A stretch of 64,000 nt of DNA from Longimicrobiales bacterium. GTDB lineage: Bacteria > Gemmatimonadota > Gemmatimonadetes > Longimicrobiales > Gaopeijiaceae. The position numbers were made by a program, and so were the translations under genes. Positions 3,627 through 17,431 of this stretch are shown here, piece after piece (within the stretch, counting starts at the first letter, position 1; each line of letters begins with the position of its first letter). The DNA lies in the NCBI GenBank assembly GCA_965202805.1, contig OZ241869.1, positions 2,688,001 to 2,752,000 of the forward strand, given 5' to 3'. The notes beneath the pieces are model-generated. The model did no database searches. It was not told the DNA's origin and saw only the letters and a list, made by a program, of their open reading frames with translations.

Positions 3627-5831
3627 CTACTTCGGCCCGGGCGCCAGATGCTCCAGCAGATAGCGCACCATCAGCATGCGAACATGGACCGCCGTCCCCT
3701 CTCCCTCCGACAACCCGTGGTTCCGGTTGGGATAGGTGAAGTAGTCGAAGGTCTTCCCGAGTTCCACCAGTCGGTCCACCAGTCCCTCGACGATCTCCAG
3801 GTGGGTGTTGGTTTCCCCGGTTCCGTGAATGATGAGCAGGTCCCCCTCGAGCCCTTCCGCGTAGTTGATGGGCGCGGAGACGCGGTAGCCGTCCGGGTTG
3901 GTTTCCAGGGTCTCCATGTAGATCTCCTGGAACCATGCGTTGTAGAGGTGCGGCTGGGGCTTGGGGACCACGGCGATCCCCACGTGGTAGACATCGGGCT
4001 TGCGAAACAGCGAATTCAGGGTGTTGGATCCGCCGCCGCTCCAGCCCCAGATCCCCACCCTGGACACATCGACGTAGGGGAGCATCCTGCCGAGTTCCAG
4101 CACGCCCGCCGCATGCTCCTCCGTCGATTGCACGCCGATCGTCGGAAAGGGCGCCCTCCGCCACGCCGCACCCTTCGGCGCCGGCGTGCCCCGGTTCTCG
4201 ATTGACACGACCAGGTACCCGAGGTCCGCGATGGCGCGATGGTAGTTGTTCCGGGTCGACCACTGGTCGAGGACGGTCTGGCCGTGCGGTTCCCCGTAGA
4301 CGTAGATGAACACCGGGTATTTCGCGCCGGGGTCGAAATCCCGCGGCTTGATCATCCACGCGTCCATCACCACGCCGTCCCCGATATCCAGCTCCAGAAA
4401 CTCCGTGGGGCGTGAGATCGTGGCCTCGGCCCGGCGCCGGAGCTCGTCGTTGTCCTCCAGAACCCGCACGACGCGGTGGTCTGGGAGGCTGATCAGGGCG
4501 GTAACCGGGGGAGTATCGAATGTGGAATATGTGTGGAAGGCCCACCGAAGGTCGGGAGAGAAGTCGTAGAAGTGGGTTCCCGGCTGGTCCGGGGGCGTGA
4601 CCCGCTCGGGCTCTTCGGCGCCGTCCAGCCGGACACGGTAGAGGTAGCGCTGGGTGGCGTTGTCGGGCGAGGCGAAGAAGTAGAACCAGCCATCTCCCCC
4701 ATCGACCTCCCCGTGGGCAACCGGCCCGCGCTCCATGACGTCGCCGGGCCCCGGGGTCAGGAGCCGTTCCTCGCGCCCGTCGCGCGAATAGACCCAGGAG
4801 TGGCGCCACCCGTCCTTCTCGGTCAGGAAGAGGAAGGAGTCGCCCCCCCGGATCCACTCCAGGCCGGCGTTCAGGCGATAGCTGGCGACGACCCAGGCCG
4901 GATCGGACTCGTGGTAGACCCGGTTGACCTCACCCGTGGTCACGTTGGCGATGAAGAAGTCCCGTTCGTCCCGAAACCGGCTGAACTGCTCCACCAGCAG
5001 CTCCTCGGAGTTCCCGGCCCAGCTCACCTGCCCGAGATAGAAGCCCTCGGTGGGGGAAGGGATGGAGATCCAGCGGACTTCCGTGCCCTCGGCGTCCACC
5101 ACGCCCACCCGGAGCCTGGTGATCGTCTCGCCCACCCGCGCGAATCGGACCTGCCGGAGCTCGGGATACGAGGGATCGGTGGGGACGAGCATGGACCTCA
5201 TCCGCACTCCGGAGGCGTCGGACTCGACGAAGGCGACCCGGTTGCCGTCGGGGCTCCACACGGCGCGCCCGTTGGAGACGGATTGGGCGGTGGTGTGGGT
5301 CAGGCGGGTCGTTTGCGCGGCCGCGAGGTCGTGGACGTGGAGGTCGCCCTCACGGCTGAAGAGGATGCGGCCTCCTTCCGGGGAGATGGTGCTCCCGGGG
5401 CCTGCCTCCACCCTCGTCAGCCTGGAGGTGGCGGGTTCGAGCATCCAGAAGCCGTCGGTGTCGGTCCGGAGGAGCGCCCAGGTGCCGTCCGGGGCGAACT
5501 GGTAGTCGGAGATGCTCAGGGGCTCCGAACCACCGGCGGGCGTGAGGTCGGCGAGCGAGGCGAGGACGGTCCGGCTGCCGCTCGCGGCATCGTACCCGAT
5601 CAACTCCGGCTGCAACGCGCCCGAGGGGGTCTCCAGGGTCGTGTATCCGGATCCGTCGGGCAGCCAGGTCGCCTGGAATGACCGCGCGTCAAAGTCCCTC
5701 GCCTCGAAGATGGAACGGAGGCGGGCTTCCGTCTCTGCGGGGACCTGGCAGAAGGCTGGAGATGCGACAAGTGTGGGGACGGCGAGAACGCCAACCAGCC
5801 AGAGGCTCCGAATAATGCGTCTCGTGCTCAT
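3627..5831 (-). CDS. S9 family dipeptidyl peptidase IV-like protein, secreted
   Basis: Signal peptide, DPPIV_N propeller, GWSGGG nucleophile elbow, YPNRNHG. Confidence 0.93.
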   Translation of the reverse strand: MSTRRIIRSLWLVGVLAVPTLVASPAFCQVPAETEARLRSIFEARDFDARSFQATWLPDGSGYTTLETPSGALQPELIGYDAASGSRTVLASLADLTPAGGSEPLSISDYQFAPDGTWALLRTDTDGFWMLEPATSRLTRVEAGPGSTISPEGGRILFSREGDLHVHDLAAAQTTRLTHTTAQSVSNGRAVWSPDGNRVAFVESDASGVRMRSMLVPTDPSYPELRQVRFARVGETITRLRVGVVDAEGTEVRWISIPSPTEGFYLGQVSWAGNSEELLVEQFSRFRDERDFFIANVTTGEVNRVYHESDPAWVVASYRLNAGLEWIRGGDSFLFLTEKDGWRHSWVYSRDGREERLLTPGPGDVMERGPVAHGEVDGGDGWFYFFASPDNATQRYLYRVRLDGAEEPERVTPPDQPGTHFYDFSPDLRWAFHTYSTFDTPPVTALISLPDHRVVRVLEDNDELRRRAEATISRPTEFLELDIGDGVVMDAWMIKPRDFDPGAKYPVFIYVYGEPHGQTVLDQWSTRNNYHRAIADLGYLVVSIENRGTPAPKGAAWRRAPFPTIGVQSTEEHAAGVLELGRMLPYVDVSRVGIWGWSGGGSNTLNSLFRKPDVYHVGIAVVPKPQPHLYNAWFQEIYMETLETNPDGYRVSAPINYAEGLEGDLLIIHGTGETNTHLEIVEGLVDRLVELGKTFDYFTYPNRNHGLSEGEGTAVHVRMLMVRYLLEHLAPGPK

Positions 5832-5865
5832 GAAGAACTCCAGATCATCCCAACAGGTCGAAATC

Positions 5866-6228
5866 TCACGATACGGGCTCCCAAAGCTCGATCGCGTTTC
5901 CTTCGGGGTCGTGGATGCGGGCGAAGCGGCCGACGCCCTCCATCTCGCTCTCGTGGCTGACCTCGATATCCGCGGACTTCAGTTGCGCGATCATCGCGTC
6001 CAGATCCGCCACGCGGAAGTTCAGCATGAACGCCTTGTCCGCCGCGAAATAGTCCGTGTCGGCACCGAAGGGCGCGAAAACCGTAACCCCGGACTCGGTC
6101 ACCCAGGGCGGCATCTCCATGTTCGTCGGGGCGGGATTGATGCCAAGGTGATCCTGATACCATTTCGCAAGTCCCTTCGGGTCCTGTGCCCGAAAGAAGA
6201 ACCCGCCGAATCCCTGAACGGTTTGCAC
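5866..6228 (-). CDS. VOC/glyoxalase family protein
   Basis: GFGGFFFRAQDP...LNFRVADLD...DPEGNAIELWEP. Confidence 0.92.
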   Translation of the reverse strand: MQTVQGFGGFFFRAQDPKGLAKWYQDHLGINPAPTNMEMPPWVTESGVTVFAPFGADTDYFAADKAFMLNFRVADLDAMIAQLKSADIEVSHESEMEGVGRFARIHDPEGNAIELWEPVS

Positions 6229-6383
6229 GCTGCGTCCTCTCGATGATGGGTTGCACGATCTGCGCTTCGGAGAGTGTCGTGGAGAGAGGGCGTCTGCGCC
6301 AGAGCGCGGGCCGCAACCCGGCGGATGCCCCTCTCACCGTCCGTCCGAACGTCATCCATGCCCTGCCAACCGGGGGCCGTGTG

Positions 6384-6425
6384 AACCTCCCGAGGGTTGA
6401 CGGTATCAGATCACATGACTAGCGT
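6384..6425 (+). promoter_or_regulatory. Putative sigma70 promoter with overlapping palindrome for the MqsRA-like operon
   Basis: TTGACG (6397-6402), 17-nt spacer, TAGCGT (6420-6425); AACC-N7-GGTT palindrome (6384-6398) overlaps the -35. Confidence 0.5.
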
Positions 6426-6486
6426 ACACCGCCTGAATCGTCCTGGCCGGATCGGACACGGGAGCAGACAGATCATATGAGTGTAT

Positions 6487-6876
6487 ATGACCACGAGTTC
6501 GGCCAGCACGCCAAGGAGCGAGAATCAGCCCGACAAGCACGCCGAGGCGCGCCGACAGCTGATCGCCCTGATCCGGCAGCCACGGCGACGGGTGAGTGCA
6601 TGGTCTCTCGAGCGCCCCACCGACATCCGGTACGAGGAGGTTTGGAATCCCGAGTCCGGGATGTACCTGACCGAGAAGGGTATGTGGCATATGATCGAGC
6701 GCTTCCTCGGGGAGGGAGTCCCGCTCCGGCAGCAGACGCTGGATCAGCCTGCGGGCGAGAAGGCGTGGGTGTGCCTGTTTCGGCTCGCGGCAGACCAACC
6801 GCGCATCTACGTCAAACTTCAGATGATCGGGTCTCGTGTCCATCTTCGCAGCTTCCATTACTCCGATCCGAGGTGA
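6487..6876 (+). CDS. MqsR-like (RelE-fold) toxin candidate
   Basis: C-terminal IYVKLQ...HLRSFHYS matches the MqsR-family YxK...SFH ending; lies directly upstream of an MqsA-like gene. Confidence 0.65.
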   Translation: MTTSSASTPRSENQPDKHAEARRQLIALIRQPRRRVSAWSLERPTDIRYEEVWNPESGMYLTEKGMWHMIERFLGEGVPLRQQTLDQPAGEKAWVCLFRLAADQPRIYVKLQMIGSRVHLRSFHYSDPR

Positions 6877-6882
6877 TCCGGA

Positions 6883-7452
6883 ATGGCTAAGATTGCTTCA
6901 CCCCCGACCGTCCTCCGTGAGATTGACGGACCTGAGATCTGCGGGTCGTGCGAAACCCCGGGCCTCAGGACGGAACTCGTCCGGGACCCATTCATTTACG
7001 GCGCTGGTGAAGACGCCGTTGAACTCGCCGTCGAGATCCCCGTCCATACCTGTTCGTACTGCGGGTCGTACACAGGCGAGGCGGCGGCGGACATCAGACA
7101 CGACGCGGTGTGCCGGCACCTCGGGCTCCTGACACCGAACGAGATTCGGGAGCTTCGCGGAGTATACGAGATGTCCCGTGCCGCCTTCGCGACGTTGACC
7201 GGCCTCGGCGAAGCAACCATCGCCCGCTGGGAAAGACGCGAGGTGATCCAGAACGTCGCAAACGACCGTTACCTGAGGCTGCTCCAGAATCCGGCCATCT
7301 TCCTCCAGCTCAAGGCGTTGGCGCATCCTGGAGCCTCGGTGGACGCCGTCCGCGACTCGGTGATTGCCGTGCCGCATGTCCTGCAACTCGATCGCGCGAA
7401 GGAGTATCGCGACCGTGGCGCGGCCTTTTCGCTGCACGAGCACGCGGCCTGA
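6883..7452 (+). CDS. MqsA-like antitoxin (Zn ribbon + XRE HTH) with C-terminal extension
   Basis: CGSC...CSYCG zinc ribbon; LLTPNEIRELR...MSRAAFATLTGLGEATIARWER HTH; ~45 extra residues ending HEHAA. Confidence 0.88.
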   Translation: MAKIASPPTVLREIDGPEICGSCETPGLRTELVRDPFIYGAGEDAVELAVEIPVHTCSYCGSYTGEAAADIRHDAVCRHLGLLTPNEIRELRGVYEMSRAAFATLTGLGEATIARWERREVIQNVANDRYLRLLQNPAIFLQLKALAHPGASVDAVRDSVIAVPHVLQLDRAKEYRDRGAAFSLHEHAA

Positions 7453-9326
7453 TGTACGTCGTCACCTTCTACTCCTTCAAGGGCGGCGTCGGTCGCACGC
7501 TCGCGCTGCTCAACGTGGCCTACGAGTTGGCAGACTCCGGCCAGCGTGTACTGGTCGTCGACTTCGACCTGGAGGCACCTGCGATCCGCGCCGACCGGTG
7601 GAACAGGGACGCGCAAGATGGCGACGTGGCGCGAGTGGGCCAGTTGTCGGAAAACCGGGGCGTGGTAGAGTACGTCGGCCAGTACCTCCAGACGATGCGG
7701 GTCCCCGACGTCCGGGAGTTCATCGTCGACGCCACCACGCCCGAGAATTGTCAGGGACAAATCTCCGTGATGCCTGCCGGAGAGCTGAACGACAGCTATG
7801 GCCAGCGCCTGAACGCCATCGACTGGAACGAGCTCTACCAGCTCCGCGACGGCTATGTAATGTTCGAGGATACACGAGCTCAGTGGGATGCCGCCGGGTT
7901 CGACTACGTCCTGCTGGACTCCCGCACCGGGTTCACCGATGTGGGCGGGATCTGCACCCGCCACCTGCCCGACGCCGTCGTCTCGCTGTTCCGCCCGGAC
8001 GATCAGAGCCTGAACGGCACCCGACAGGTTGTCGAGGCCATCCGCAAGGAGGAGCAAACGCCCCGGAGGAGACAGGAGATCGAACAACATTTCGTCATGG
8101 CCGGGATACCGGATGCCGACGACGAGCATGGCCACCTGGCTGCGAGAAGGAGGCTGTTCAGGACAGAGCTCAGCATTCCCGGCCCTGAACGACTGTTGGA
8201 GATCAGGCACTACCCCAGCATGGACCTGCTGACCCAGCCGATCTACACGCAGACCCGCAGCGGGACCCGCCTGGCCCGTTCGTATCGAATCCTTGCGCGC
8301 AGGATTCGTGCCTGGAACATCGGCGACCGAAAGGGCATTCTGGACGGTCTTCGCGACCGCCGTCGCTTCGCAGACTCGCGTGCGTTGGACGACTTCCTGG
8401 CCCAGGTCAGGAGGCGGTACCACAACGACGCGGACGTTCTCATCGAACTCGCAGAAACATACGAATCCCGAGGATCGATCCTGAAGGCCGCCGAGCTGCT
8501 CGACAGGGCGGCCGAACTCCGCCCCGCGATGACCCACAAGCAGCTCCTGCATTTGGCGCGCGCACGGCACCGGACCGAGGACCGGCAAGGTGCCCTGCGG
8601 GCCCTGCGGTCGTTCTTCCAGACGGATGTCCATCACCCGTCTTCGGAGAACCTGTTCCTGCTCTTGATGGAAGCACTTGACTTGCTCGAAACGCTCGGGG
8701 AGGACGCCGCGGGACTCGCTGCTGAGGCGCCAATCATTGCGGAGCTCTCGCCTCGGACGCGCGTCCATGTGGCATCGCGGCTTAATCGGTCAGTGGGCGA
8801 GCGTCGCGTGGCCATTTCGATATTTGAGACACTTCTCGACGAAGACACTCTCTCAACCAGACAGAAGGCGAGCTGGGCGTGGCGCCTTGCCCTTGCCCGC
8901 ATGGCCGTGGGGGACTACGACCGCGCCGGGGCGGTTTTCCGGTCAGAACTGGACGATTCCGCGTCTCGTTCTGCCGTGCCCACCGCGTTCAATCTGGCCA
9001 TGGCCGAGTGGGCGATGGCCGGTAAGCCGAATGAAGACGCCTTCCGCGCCGTGGTGAAGCGCATGGACGAAGAAGACGACGGCGATTGGCAGCGAGACAA
9101 CGCCAGCGGACTCCAAGGCGTGGCCGTCGTACAGTGGTTCGGAAACCGCCGGGAGCAGGCCACAAGCAGCCTGGATGCGGCCGAGAAGGCCTTGGGCCGC
9201 ACCGCGATCAGCTGCTGGTCCTACACCCGCGTCCCACGCAAGACTTTCCTGGAGCACTGCGCCGAGATCCGCCGACTCTTCGCCGGCGAGGACATCCAAC
9301 CAGTCTTCATGCGAGGCGGTTGCTGA
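7452..9326 (+). CDS. KGGVGR-motif ParA/MinD-like ATPase fused to TPR-like helical repeats (624 aa)
   Basis: True start is probably ATG 7452 (TGATG overlap with the antitoxin stop). VVTFYSFKGGVGRT, VVDFDLEAP and DYVLLDSRTG motifs; helical repeat C-terminal half. Confidence 0.85.
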   Translation: MYVVTFYSFKGGVGRTLALLNVAYELADSGQRVLVVDFDLEAPAIRADRWNRDAQDGDVARVGQLSENRGVVEYVGQYLQTMRVPDVREFIVDATTPENCQGQISVMPAGELNDSYGQRLNAIDWNELYQLRDGYVMFEDTRAQWDAAGFDYVLLDSRTGFTDVGGICTRHLPDAVVSLFRPDDQSLNGTRQVVEAIRKEEQTPRRRQEIEQHFVMAGIPDADDEHGHLAARRRLFRTELSIPGPERLLEIRHYPSMDLLTQPIYTQTRSGTRLARSYRILARRIRAWNIGDRKGILDGLRDRRRFADSRALDDFLAQVRRRYHNDADVLIELAETYESRGSILKAAELLDRAAELRPAMTHKQLLHLARARHRTEDRQGALRALRSFFQTDVHHPSSENLFLLLMEALDLLETLGEDAAGLAAEAPIIAELSPRTRVHVASRLNRSVGERRVAISIFETLLDEDTLSTRQKASWAWRLALARMAVGDYDRAGAVFRSELDDSASRSAVPTAFNLAMAEWAMAGKPNEDAFRAVVKRMDEEDDGDWQRDNASGLQGVAVVQWFGNRREQATSSLDAAEKALGRTAISCWSYTRVPRKTFLEHCAEIRRLFAGEDIQPVFMRGGC

Positions 9327-9348
9327 AGGGCTTGAGAGAGGAAACGCG

Positions 9349-9633
9349 ATGAGCACGTTCGGAGAAGACCTGATCCGGTCGCTGAAGGAAGTTTTGGCTC
9401 ACAGTAAGGGCGAAGGCCCCGCCATCGTTCACGCCCCGGTGACCCCGCGCGAGGTCCGGGAACAGGCCAAGCTGACACAGTCTCAGATGGCAGCCCTGAT
9501 GGGTATGAGCCTGTCCGGCTACCGGAAATGGGAGCAGGGAACGCGCCGCGTCAGCGGCCCGGCCGCGACGCTTCTGCGCATCATCCAGCACGAACCCGCC
9601 GCGGTCAGGCGTGCGCTGCTGGCGTCGCCTTGA
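9349..9633 (+). CDS. HigA/NadS-like XRE HTH protein (orphan antitoxin-like)
   Basis: MSTFGEDLIRSLKE...LTQSQMAALMGMSLSGYRKWEQGTRRVSGPAATLL; GAGG RBS. Confidence 0.88.
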   Translation: MSTFGEDLIRSLKEVLAHSKGEGPAIVHAPVTPREVREQAKLTQSQMAALMGMSLSGYRKWEQGTRRVSGPAATLLRIIQHEPAAVRRALLASP

Positions 9634-9679
9634 AGGACACGTCTTGCTGCCCGGTGACAAGCCCGAGCCAGGGAAGCCC

Positions 9680-10992: not shown

Positions 10993-12249
10993 TCACGGAG
11001 CGCCGAAGCCGAGCGCCCGCGCGAGGTCTTCGTGCTCGAACGCCGACTCCATGCGATCGATTTCCCTTCGACCCCCGCCGAGTCGCGCGGCGACCTCTCG
11101 CCACTCGGAGACCGCCTTCCCTGCCGCGCCCGCAATCCGTCTGGCGTGTTTCGGGCCCAGGCCGTAATACTCCGCGGTGGCCAGCGCCTGGTCGAGCGAA
11201 GCGGTGCCATCGAATTCGTCGATGTATGTCGTAAGGACCCGGGGGCTCACGTCCGTCGGCACGGGATTCAGGTCGTAGGCCGGTGAGAGGCGCCAGCCCC
11301 TTCCGATCTCGTAGAGGAATCCGTGGTTCCGCAGATGATCGTCGGTGTTCGAGATGAGGACGCTGAAAACGACGCGTCTCCACAGCTCGGCGAGGTCGGT
11401 TCGTGCCGCCGCTCCGTGACTGCGCAGCGCCTCGGCCAGCTCGAGATACGAGCGCCGCTCGTTGTCGCGGGCATCCAGCATGCTCATCGTCGAGAGAAAC
11501 GGCACCCGATGGCTTCCCTCGCGGTCGAACCGCTGAAGAACCAGGATTCGCCTTCCGGCAACGGTCTCCAGTCGCCACGCGGGGACCCGGATCCCGGCGC
11601 GTTTCGCGAGCGCGAGCGCGACTCCTTCCCAGAGCACGATGTCGCGGTCGTCCTCGGTGCCTGGAAACTTCGCCAGCACCAACTCGCCGCCGTCGTCCCT
11701 GACCGCGGCCTTGGGCCGGGTGCCGCCGAGGGACGATCCGGGACCGACCAGCAGGCGAAGGTCGTCGTCCTTCTCGCGCCGGCGAAGAACCCGCCTCGAG
11801 GCCGCCACGAGCCGGCGCAGATCGACCAGCGGAGGAACGCGCATCGCGCCCGCTTCGGCGAGAAACGGCCCTTCCCGCTGCGGCGAGAATCTGAGCGCGC
11901 CCATCCGGATTTCGTCGTCCACGCGAAGAAGGAAATCGGATTCGAACAGAGTCCGGGGAGCTCGCCCTTCCAACCTCGCCCGCCTGACTTCGGCACGGCG
12001 GAGGAGCACCCGGCCCCAGCGGTCCGGCGCCGAATCGCCGAGGGACCCGAAGAGTCTGCCGCGCGTGTGGTACGGGCCCGGTCCAACCGTCAGCGCGGGC
12101 TCGAGGGCGAAGCGCTGGGGGTGGTCCATCCACGCCGCATCGTATTCGAACGATGCGCTCTCGCGGCCGCCGCGAACGCGAATCCACAGCCGGCCGGCTC
12201 GCATGGGCTCACCCCGCAGATCGACGTGAACCAGGACGGGGGTGTCCAT
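10993..12249 (-). CDS. hipA: HipA family kinase toxin
   Basis: DSAPDRWG, GSSLGGTRPK, QRFDR, NTDDHLRNHGF, LSPAYD. Confidence 0.95.
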   Translation of the reverse strand: MDTPVLVHVDLRGEPMRAGRLWIRVRGGRESASFEYDAAWMDHPQRFALEPALTVGPGPYHTRGRLFGSLGDSAPDRWGRVLLRRAEVRRARLEGRAPRTLFESDFLLRVDDEIRMGALRFSPQREGPFLAEAGAMRVPPLVDLRRLVAASRRVLRRREKDDDLRLLVGPGSSLGGTRPKAAVRDDGGELVLAKFPGTEDDRDIVLWEGVALALAKRAGIRVPAWRLETVAGRRILVLQRFDREGSHRVPFLSTMSMLDARDNERRSYLELAEALRSHGAAARTDLAELWRRVVFSVLISNTDDHLRNHGFLYEIGRGWRLSPAYDLNPVPTDVSPRVLTTYIDEFDGTASLDQALATAEYYGLGPKHARRIAGAAGKAVSEWREVAARLGGGRREIDRMESAFEHEDLARALGFGAP

Positions 12250-12611
12250 CAGTCGTCGGCGCCCGCAAGACGCGTCTCGCCCCTCCGACGTTCGGCCGAG
12301 GGCACGCGCACGCGCTGAGGCAGGCGCTCCTCCAGCAGATCGAGCCCGATCCCGTCCCGGCTGCGGTCAGCCAGCTCCGAAATGCCGTCGTGCATCCCCA
12401 GGACGAACAGGACCGTGGCGTACATGCCCATGGAGACGCCCGCGTCACCCCGTTCGATCCTGTGCAGCGTCGTGCGGCTGATCAGCGCGCGCTCGGCCAT
12501 CGTCGATGCGCGGATGCGGCGGCGCAGCCGGGCGTCCCGGATGTCGCTCCCCAGCTTCCTGAGGATGCGCCGGACCGGAAGCGGCAGCGTGCCGCGGATG
12601 TAGGAAGGCAT
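12249..12611 (-). CDS. XRE HTH antitoxin (HipB-like)
   Basis: ARLRRRI...MAERALISRTTLHRIERGD; TGATG-coupled to hipA. Confidence 0.9.
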   Translation of the reverse strand: MPSYIRGTLPLPVRRILRKLGSDIRDARLRRRIRASTMAERALISRTTLHRIERGDAGVSMGMYATVLFVLGMHDGISELADRSRDGIGLDLLEERLPQRVRVPSAERRRGETRLAGADD

Positions 12612-16803: not shown

Positions 16804-17037
16804 ATGGTCATTGTCAATGTCCACCAGGCCAAGACGCAGCTTTCACGGCTGCTGGCGCAAGTCGAGGCAGGCGAGGAAGTCGTGGTCGCCCGCCGGGGCA
16901 AACCCGTCGCGCGGCTGGTTGCCTTCGAGCCCCGCGGCGCTCGGTGTCCGGATGTCCTCAAGGGGAAGGTCACGATCCCCGACAGCTTCTTCGATCCGTT
17001 GCCGGAGGAGGAGCTGAAATCATGGGAAGGCGAGTAG
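16804..17037 (+). CDS. Phd/YefM family antitoxin
   Basis: VNVHQAKTQLSRLL...GEEVVVARRGKPVARLV. Confidence 0.95.
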   Translation: MVIVNVHQAKTQLSRLLAQVEAGEEVVVARRGKPVARLVAFEPRGARCPDVLKGKVTIPDSFFDPLPEEELKSWEGE

Positions 17038-17044
17038 CGTCCCG

Positions 17045-17431
17045 ATGCGGGTGTTGCTGGATACCCATGCCTTCCTCTGGTGGATCGCCGACAGCGGACG
17101 CCTGTCCCTGGCGGCGCGCCAAGTGATTGCCGACGAAACGAACGACATCGTCGTCAGTGCTGCGTCCGCCTGGGAAATCACTACCAAGTACAGAATCGGC
17201 AAGCTCCCCGGCGCTGAGGCGGTGGCACTCGATGTTGCGGGCGCCATCTCAGCCCAGGGGTTCGAAAACCTTCCGATCAGCGTCGTCGACGCGGAACGCG
17301 CGGGGCGGCTGCCCGGGCCTCACCGTGACCCCTTCGACCGGATGCTTGCAGCGCAGGCTCAGGCGCGCGACCTGGCGGTCGTTTCTGCGGACACGGCATT
17401 GGACGCCTACGGGATCCGCAGGATCTGGTGA
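17045..17431 (+). CDS. vapC: VapC family PIN toxin
   Basis: LLDTHAFLW, SAASAWE, HRDPFDRMLAAQA. Confidence 0.95.
   Translation: MRVLLDTHAFLWWIADSGRLSLAARQVIADETNDIVVSAASAWEITTKYRIGKLPGAEAVALDVAGAISAQGFENLPISVVDAERAGRLPGPHRDPFDRMLAAQAQARDLAVVSADTALDAYGIRRIW

What the first reader, a model, noticed from the sequence alone, without database searches (positions are those of the whole stretch)
6384..9633. Candidate tripartite system: MqsR/MqsA-like pair coupled to a KGGVGR ParA-like ATPase-TPR protein, plus a trailing HTH
Seen: one promoter, then an MqsR-like gene, a 6-nt gap, an MqsA-like gene, a TGATG overlap into a 624-aa protein (variant Walker A KGGVGRT with R at the usual K, followed by TPR-like repeats), and 22 nt later a HigA-like HTH. 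Known: MqsRA can form tripartite anti-phage TAC systems with a SecB-like chaperone, and NTPase-TPR proteins often act as sensors in conflict systems. Inference: here the ATPase-TPR takes the third-component position, sensing a trigger and releasing an RNase toxin. I know no named system with this architecture.
Basis: partly seen in the sequence, partly recalled or inferred. Interest (0 to 1): 0.82.

Follow-up and report, generated by a model that had tools for sequence, protein, structure and literature searches.

The report
Toxin-antitoxin pair guarded by ParA-TPR switch
Three tightly linked genes, a predicted RNA-cutting toxin, its likely antidote and a ParA-type ATPase fused to repeat domains, form a cassette found in many bacterial groups that a 2026 preprint already proposed, untested, as an anti-phage device; new here is a conserved tail on the antidote that likely makes it depend on the ATPase protein.

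Summary
Coordinates and junctions are confirmed. The three-gene unit is real and strict. Toxin-like A folds like MqsR (Z 9.7). MqsA-like B and KGGVGR ParA-TPR C follow A in 78 of 79 evaluable genome loci, and B precedes C in 57 of 58 evaluable metagenome loci. The trailing HTH is not part of it (1 of 88). The architecture is not new: Li, Burroughs and Aravind (bioRxiv 10.64898/2026.10.19.760177) describe computational 'TA-ParA' systems, including MqsR-MqsA with ParA-TPR. Not found in their main text: B carries a ~50-aa C-terminal tail with a conserved F...F-x-L motif (106 of 121, shuffles 5.8) often ending AA/VA (67 of 121), lost in all 3 copies seen without a working C. I infer TAC-like control: C shields the tail, a trigger at the TPRs frees it, ClpXP removes B and the RNase acts. 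Binding, toxicity and defence are untested; AA ends also occur on stand-alone MqsA homologs. The scan's earlier notes hold no such system.

The parts
6397..6425 (+). Candidate sigma-70 promoter (TTGACG, 17 nt, TAGCGT); weak -10
   Evidence: sequence; not listed by consensus scan; better -10 boxes at the same place in relatives
6410..6419 (.). Candidate operator 1, ATCACATGAC, in the promoter spacer
   Evidence: CATATG palindrome in 80 of 92 upstream regions vs 2 of 92 control regions inside C
6472..6481 (.). Candidate operator 2, ATCATATGAG, just before the toxin start
6487..6876 (+). A: predicted MqsR-fold (BECR) RNase toxin, 129 aa (alternative GTG start 6481); family without Pfam model, Y108-x-K110 and H124 invariant, R121-S122-F123 nearly so
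   Evidence: AF2 pLDDT 93; top VIA hit MqsR 3hi2_D Z 9.7, rmsd 2.9 over 89 residues; Foldseek prob 0.96, E 0.17; 311 clusters at 50% identity
6883..7452 (+). B: MqsA-like antitoxin, CxxC...CxxC zinc domain plus Xre HTH, 189 aa
   Evidence: TIGR03830 E 7e-15; family profile matches MqsA 3gn5 over residues 3-125, E 3.8e-7; four cysteines invariant in 121
7294..7449 (+). C-terminal tail of B (about residues 138-189), ending F182-S-L184-H-E-H-A-A: ChAD-like element with ssrA-type AA end; this copy lacks the family's upstream Phe
7452..9326 (+). C: 624-aa ParA/MinD-fold ATPase (residues 1-290; Walker A KGGVGRT at 7479-7499, D37/D39, Walker B D156) fused to a TPR solenoid (about 310-610)
   Evidence: NF047398 154 bits; AF2 pLDDT 89, pTM 0.82; Foldseek BcsQ/Soj/MinD and TPR hits; R15 in 121 of 121
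9349..9633 (+). D: HigA/NadS-like HTH gene with no toxin gene seen beside it; passenger at this site, not part of the system
   Evidence: homolog downstream of C in 1 of 88 loci, truncated; an 83% identical copy lies elsewhere in G006 without A, B or C

Best explanation
This is a three-gene toxin-antitoxin-ParA cassette in which a predicted MqsR-type RNase (A) is likely held inactive by an MqsA-type antitoxin (B), and B likely stays stable only while the ParA-TPR protein (C) grips its conserved C-terminal tail. Shown: gene order and tight coupling, the folds, the strict linkage, the conserved tail, the upstream palindrome, and the decay pattern (toxin lost while B and C stay; tail lost where C is lost). 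Inferred: B represses the operon at the TCATATGA palindromes; C, whose Walker A carries the K-to-R change that traps ATP in other ParA proteins, sits as a slow-hydrolysing clamp whose ATPase domain binds the F...F-x-L motif and hides the AA/VA end; an infection signal bound by the variable TPRs releases the tail; ClpXP degrades B; A cleaves mRNA and stops the cell (abortive defence). It would work like a toxin-antitoxin-chaperone system with an NTPase-sensor in place of SecB.
For: Linkage: 78 of 79 evaluable genome loci (best 80 of 154; one of the 78 has C in fragments), 57 of 58 from the ATPase side, 3 of 3 plasmid loci inspected, 3 of 6 viral-contig loci. Tail: median 52 aa, motif 106 of 121 vs shuffle mean 5.8, AA/VA 67 of 121 vs 2.3; last codon spread over GCC 30, GCG 22, GCA 9, GCT 8, so selected as protein; A ends in Ala in 3 of 92, C in 8 of 92. 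Tail missing in the 3 copies seen without a working C: L096, L117, G006 L267. Toxin deleted or gutted with B and C intact in G124, G219, G236. C cut back to 281-433 aa with toxin motif and tail kept in L089/L092/L097/L104 (one clade), L118, L130 and L190, pointing to the ATPase half as the tail-binding part. The same C type sits behind other toxin families and behind a non-MqsA pair whose second gene has an F-x-L-R motif near its end. ATPase half conserved (mean identity 0.58), TPR half variable (0.30). Host has clpX and a tmRNA tag ending AA. TAC ChAD tails end in VA or AA and depend on ClpXP (bioRxiv 2024.02.24.581848 passages). K-to-R is an ATP trap in P1 ParA and McdA (PMC8684754 passages). 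PADLOC hits in 16 of 144 flanking ORFs (15 of 72 loci) vs 0 of 30 window ORFs.
Against: No experiment exists for any step. AA ends are not specific to C-linked antitoxins: 6 of 19 MqsA-like genes without a third gene in the control also end in AA, and 7 of 19 have extensions of 33 aa or more. In the more diverse metagenome set only 20 of 76 tails end AA/VA. Two close relatives (second G000 copy, G006 site B) lack the F-x-L motif yet keep intact A and C. Tail loss without C rests on 3 cases and fits neutral decay too; in L117 one deletion could remove both. The window's C departs from family consensus at A44 (G in 90%) and G218 (N in 92%). Most loci (57 of 72) have no PADLOC hit next door, and one site in this genus lies between housekeeping genes. 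Kin loci from sponge microbes dominate the genome set and are not independent.
Confidence: 0.5

Rival explanations
1. Activator model (as in the TA-ParA preprint): A+B is self-sufficient at rest; on sensing, C switches, grabs the tail and pulls B off A or hands it to a protease. C is needed for firing, not for safety.
For: Same linkage and tail conservation. L117 and L096 keep a largely intact toxin without a working C. Proposed without tail detail in bioRxiv 10.64898/2026.10.19.760177 section 26.
Against: If C were dispensable at rest, copies with intact A, intact tail and no C should occur; none among 79 evaluable genome loci, while toxin loss with B and C intact occurs. Small numbers.
Confidence: 0.3
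2. Non-defence role: a selfish addiction or stress-dormancy cassette in which C reads ATP level or a host stress signal, not an invader.
For: Patchy presence and clean insertion: site B empty in 4 of 5 congeners; on plasmids next to integrases and transposases; most loci lack defence neighbours.
Against: The fast-diverging TPR half, toxin swapping and neighbours such as type I R-M, CBASS cyclase, Qat, pAgo, SIR2 and AriAB fit defence; TAC relatives are anti-phage.
Confidence: 0.15
3. C is an independent partitioning or housekeeping ParA that merely lies next to an MqsRA pair.
For: Fold is ParA/MinD; 10 of 20 NF047398 matches in the phylum sample have no TA hit within 1.5 kb upstream.
Against: Those 10 are a different subfamily; this subfamily has B upstream in 57 of 58 metagenome loci and 10 of 10 phylum loci (and window), at gaps mostly -4 to +6 nt; ParA_partition score 31 vs cut-off 180.
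Confidence: 0.03

Closest known systems
TA-ParA systems, ConB2 clade, subtype iii (BECR toxins such as MqsR-MqsA); Li, Burroughs, Aravind, bioRxiv 10.64898/2026.10.19.760177 (abstract, sections 10, 24, 26, 41 and passages read; figures and supplements not seen)
   Same: Type II TA plus a third gene encoding ParA with Arg in place of the Walker A Lys, fused to TPRs; proposed switch that unleashes the toxin; computational only.
   Different: The main text has no mention of 'degron' or 'ClpX' and calls the theme distinct from SecB TAC; the antitoxin tail, operator and decay pattern reported here are not in the text I read. Whether this Pfam-less toxin family is in their figures or supplement I could not see.
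Toxin-antitoxin-chaperone (TAC) systems: MqsRAC, HigBAC, CmdTAC (bioRxiv 10.1101/2024.02.24.581848, passages; PMC6377645, search listing only)
   Same: T-A-third gene order; antitoxin with C-terminal extension bearing conserved aromatic residues, ending AA/VA in ClpXP-dependent cases; modular use with several toxins.
   Different: Third gene is a 624-aa ParA-TPR NTPase, not a ~150-aa SecB; dependence on it is untested.
E. coli MqsR/MqsA (PMC2791442, passages; PDB 3hi2, 3gn5)
   Same: Toxin fold (Z 9.7), zinc domain plus C-terminal HTH antitoxin, toxin-first order.
   Different: 19% structural identity, no PF15723 hit in 144 family members; toxin ends in RSFH; antitoxin about 55 aa longer; third gene always present.
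NCBIfam NF047398 KGGVGR-motif variant AAA ATPase; PADLOC candidate PDC-M28B
   Same: C passes the NF047398 cut-off; PDC-M28B matches at E 6e-26.
   Different: The PDC-M28B match starts at model position 131 (N-terminal extension absent here) and A and B hit no PDC-M28 model; no paper found for 'KGGVGR' in this sense or 'PDC-M28'.

Membership tests
TA-ParA system (ConB2, subtype iii) | Type II TA pair with BECR toxin and HTH antitoxin plus ParA gene in one operon | tested here: met
   (toxin fold from a predicted model)
TA-ParA system (ConB2, subtype iii) | ParA domain fused to a C-terminal sensor, most often TPRs | tested here: met
TA-ParA system (ConB2, subtype iii) | Arg in place of the Walker A Lys | tested here: met
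   R15 in 121 of 121; feature
TA-ParA system (ConB2, subtype iii) | PG motif after sensor-1 DxD | tested here: inconclusive
   window copy reads P43-A44; 90% of 121 family members read PG
TA-ParA system (ConB2, subtype iii) | Phylogenetic placement inside ConB2 | not tested
   their alignment and tree were not available
TA-ParA system (ConB2, subtype iii) | Ternary complex and invader-triggered toxin release (postulated by the authors) | not testable with these tools
   needs experiments; the complex-prediction queue was full
TAC (toxin-antitoxin-chaperone) | Third gene is a SecB-like chaperone | tested here: not met
   C is ParA-fold plus TPR
TAC (toxin-antitoxin-chaperone) | C-terminal antitoxin extension with conserved aromatics, AA/VA end in ClpXP-dependent members | tested here: met
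   sequence level only; definition
TAC (toxin-antitoxin-chaperone) | Antitoxin unstable without third component; tail deletion removes dependence | not testable with these tools
   only indirect: tail lost in 3 copies without working C
MqsR/MqsA | Toxin has MqsR (RelE-like) fold | tested here: met
   Z 9.7, rmsd 2.9, 89 residues; next hit Z 5.4
MqsR/MqsA | Toxin matches Pfam MqsR_toxin PF15723 | tested here: not met
   0 of 144 members at E 0.05; language-model lead only
MqsR/MqsA | Antitoxin with four-Cys zinc domain and C-terminal HTH (TIGR03830) | tested here: inconclusive
   motifs present; window copy 54.9 bits below cut-off 61.8; homolog L070 passes at 65.1
MqsR/MqsA | mRNase activity neutralised by the antitoxin | not testable with these tools
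   needs experiment
NF047398 KGGVGR ATPase | Score above curated cut-off | tested here: met
   154.3 vs 90
Partitioning ParA (NF041546) | Score above cut-off, canonical KGGxGK | tested here: not met
   30.9 vs 180; motif is KGGVGR

The most novel reading that the evidence does not exclude
TA-ParA systems and TAC systems share one logic: a portable F...F-x-L tail makes unrelated antitoxins addicted to an ATP-trapped ParA-TPR clamp, which acts as an NLR-like guard that holds a degron shut until its TPRs meet a phage protein. ParA would be a nucleotide-gated chaperone substitute, and the tail plus C a transplantable switch for any toxin-antitoxin pair.
Probability: 0.4. Interest if true: 0.75.

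Novelty: new member of a known kind. Interest (0 to 1): 0.5.

Why it matters
The class was predicted only in October 2026 and has no experimental test or activation mechanism. The tail gives a precise, cheap test and would join TA-ParA to TAC systems, which the preprint treats as distinct. It would also show what a natural K-to-R 'ATP-trap' ParA does. Complete copies lie on plasmids of cultured, named strains (Rhizobium phaseoli, R. gallicum, Massilia forsythiae), where the toxin gene is unannotated, so the system can be cloned.

Tried and rejected
Structure prediction of C with B's tail could not be run: the queue was full, so no binding model exists. Mutual-information covariation between tail and C on 121 pairs (effective 66) gave no signal: top z 5.8 against 4.2-5.6 in 10 permutations. 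Sequence searches did not place the toxin: no Pfam, NCBIfam, PADLOC or PHROG hit and only chance PDB sequence hits. The Polymorphobacter pair looks HicA/HicB-like by eye only; Pfam, NCBIfam and PDB did not confirm it, PHROG gave phrog_5923 and phrog_2620. No relative in viral contigs with the single C protein or the toxin pattern nor in annotated phages. One sponge metatranscriptome has contigs over 6772-7104 and 7655-8305, but contigs cannot show transcription or a single transcript. Low-depth joints 6303-9662 and 6313-9669 in one run suggest strains with an empty site, but at 88% likeness they may come from other organisms. D as a fourth component was rejected. Paper searches found no description of the antitoxin tail in a ParA-linked system; the library lacks most subscription journals and bioRxiv supplements are closed.
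Full report
Observation. C scores 154 bits on NF047398 (cut-off 90) and has weak TPR hits; B scores 54.9 bits on the MqsA model TIGR03830 (cut-off 61.8); A hits nothing; D is a plain HTH. The promoter is a candidate only.

Toxin A. A profile from 7 close copies found 311 clusters at 50% identity. In 144 aligned members Y108, K110 and H124 are invariant and R121, S122, F123 nearly so; none hits PF15723. The AlphaFold model (pLDDT 93) has E. coli MqsR as its top match among 48,161 chains (Z 9.7, rmsd 2.9, 89 residues; next 5.4), and MqsR is the only Foldseek row with high probability (0.96, E 0.17). MqsR needs K56, Q68, Y81 and K96 (PMC2791442 passages); from the range ends (model 123 to chain 95) I infer that Y108 and H124 lie near Y81 and K96. 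RNase activity is inferred.

Linkage. Among 41 relatives, full-length C and A occur at the same four places: twice in this genome, once each in G013 and G006. In 401 genomes of the phylum, 7 had A, and the 6 other than G000 all had B and C. The genome scan used a pattern that 52 of the 144 members fit and confirmed 154 loci; of the best 80, one ended 81 nt after A, and 78 of the other 79 have A-B-C in order, one with C in fragments. Their titles name Alpha- and Gammaproteobacteria, Acidobacteriota, Latescibacterota, Binatia, Spirochaetia, Entotheonella and Thermodesulfobacteriota, mostly MAGs. From the other side, a capped metagenome scan with C confirmed 581 loci; of the best 80, 22 had under 1100 nt upstream; 57 of the other 58 have B and 49 an A-family toxin. 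The exception, L180, has a damaged Walker A. Several others carry unrelated small toxin-like genes, and a Polymorphobacter plasmid has a non-MqsA pair before C. Three of three plasmid loci inspected and 3 of 6 viral-contig loci hold the full cassette. Ten of 20 NF047398 matches in the phylum are other subfamilies with no TA hit within 1.5 kb. D follows C in 1 of 88 loci, truncated, and a close copy lies elsewhere in G006. The second site is empty in 4 of 5 congeners, with about 3.2 kb missing between the flanks.

Protein C. The model (pLDDT 89, pTM 0.82) is a ParA/MinD fold (BcsQ, Soj, MinD) followed by a TPR solenoid. K10, R15, D37, D39 and D156 are present in all 121 aligned members. The ATPase half averages 58% pairwise identity, the TPR half 30%. 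The K-to-R change at this position traps ATP and locks partners in P1 ParA and McdA (PMC8684754 passages); that it does so here is inferred. The window copy differs from consensus at A44 and G218.

The tail of B. After the HTH domain B carries 36-76 residues (median 52). An upstream Phe (90%) and terminal F-x-L (94%, 95%) are conserved in otherwise variable sequence; the motif is in 106 of 121 against a shuffle mean of 5.8, and AA/VA ends 67 of 121 against 2.3. In the genome set 67 of 94 end AA or VA with all four Ala codons used; in the metagenome set only 20 of 76. TAC antitoxins carry such tails, ending VA or AA where ClpXP acts (bioRxiv 2024.02.24.581848 passages). The host encodes ClpX and a tmRNA tag ending AA. 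Control: of 30 TIGR03830 loci I examined 26, leaving out 4 long fusions. Four followed by a SecB-like gene (judged by eye) have extensions of 52-77 aa, three followed by C 36-59 aa; of 19 without a third gene 12 have 24 aa or less, 7 have 33-62 aa, and 6 end in AA. So length and AA alone are not specific; the F...F-x-L motif is the better marker. The tail is missing in the three copies seen without a working C (L096, L117, L267); the toxin is lost while B and C stay in G124, G219 and G236; and C is cut back toward the ATPase half with toxin motif and tail kept in at least four lineages. Two close copies lack F-x-L yet look intact.

Regulation and context. CATATG lies upstream of A in 80 of 92 loci against 2 of 92 control stretches; the window has two such sites, 6410-6419 and 6472-6481. 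PADLOC hits occur in 16 of 144 mechanically chosen flanking ORFs (15 of 72 loci: type I R-M, CBASS cyclase, QatA, pAgo, SIR2, AriAB and others) against 0 of 30 window ORFs, a rough baseline from one region.

Known or new. Li, Burroughs and Aravind (bioRxiv 10.64898/2026.10.19.760177; abstract, sections 10, 24, 26, 41 and passages read, figures and supplement not seen) describe TA-ParA systems: a ConB2 ParA with Arg for the Walker A Lys, mostly fused to TPRs, as third component of type II TA pairs including MqsR-MqsA, postulated to unleash the toxin on sensing an invader. This locus is a member of that predicted class. Their main text contains neither 'degron' nor 'ClpX' and sets the class apart from SecB TAC. 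The ptuXYZ operon of PMC11980606 (passages) is a different three-gene design. The scan's own notes returned nothing on this system.

Verdict. A real, widespread, probably mobile three-gene system of a recently predicted, untested kind. My best mechanism (0.5) is TAC-like: C clamps B's tail and hides its degron until a signal at the TPRs releases it. The activator model (0.3) differs in one testable point, whether A+B is safe without C. No binding model could be run because the queue was full, and covariation was uninformative. Interest 0.5.

Noticed in passing
G000:C1:3240830-3243821 (L031:10831-13822): Second, diverged (about 50%) copy of the A-B-C cassette in the same genome, inserted between an arsA-like ATPase gene and a cstA-like gene; the site is empty in 4 of 5 congeners.
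   Followed up: yes
L242, L243, L244, L246 (G132, G321, G249, G202): MqsRA-like pairs with 52-77 aa antitoxin tails followed by a SecB-like gene (by eye): probable TAC systems in the same phylum.
   Followed up: no
L236 (NZ_CP081849.1, Polymorphobacter plasmid) 5091-7842: ParA-TPR of this family behind a non-MqsA pair that looks HicA/HicB-like by eye; the second gene has F-D-L-R-R near its C-terminus.
   Followed up: partly
L202, L211, L215, L221, L222, L223, L224, L225, L229: Several further small toxin-like families, without Pfam hits where tested, in front of MqsA-like B and C.
   Followed up: partly
L233/L234 (IMG/VR) 4342-4977: ArsR-like HTH gene with a C-terminal extension ending VAG directly before a 736-aa KGGVGR ATPase of another subfamily, next to an integrase.
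   Followed up: no
L050-L057, L063, L065: Ten KGGVGR ATPases of other architectures (open frames of 216 to 1030 aa) in the same phylum without a TA hit upstream.
   Followed up: no
window 10993-12611 (-) and 16804-17431 (+): A HipA-like kinase gene with HTH partner and, by eye, a Phd/PIN-type pair: ordinary type II TA modules near the cassette.
   Followed up: no
L058 (G219) 3-566: The toxin-less B-C copy follows a gene that looks by eye like a type I-U CRISPR Csb2 gene.
   Followed up: no
NZ_CP051687.1, NZ_CP013566.1, NZ_CP006879.1: The toxin gene is missing from the PLSDB gene table in all three plasmid loci, leaving an apparently orphan 'MqsA + ParA family' pair.
   Followed up: yes
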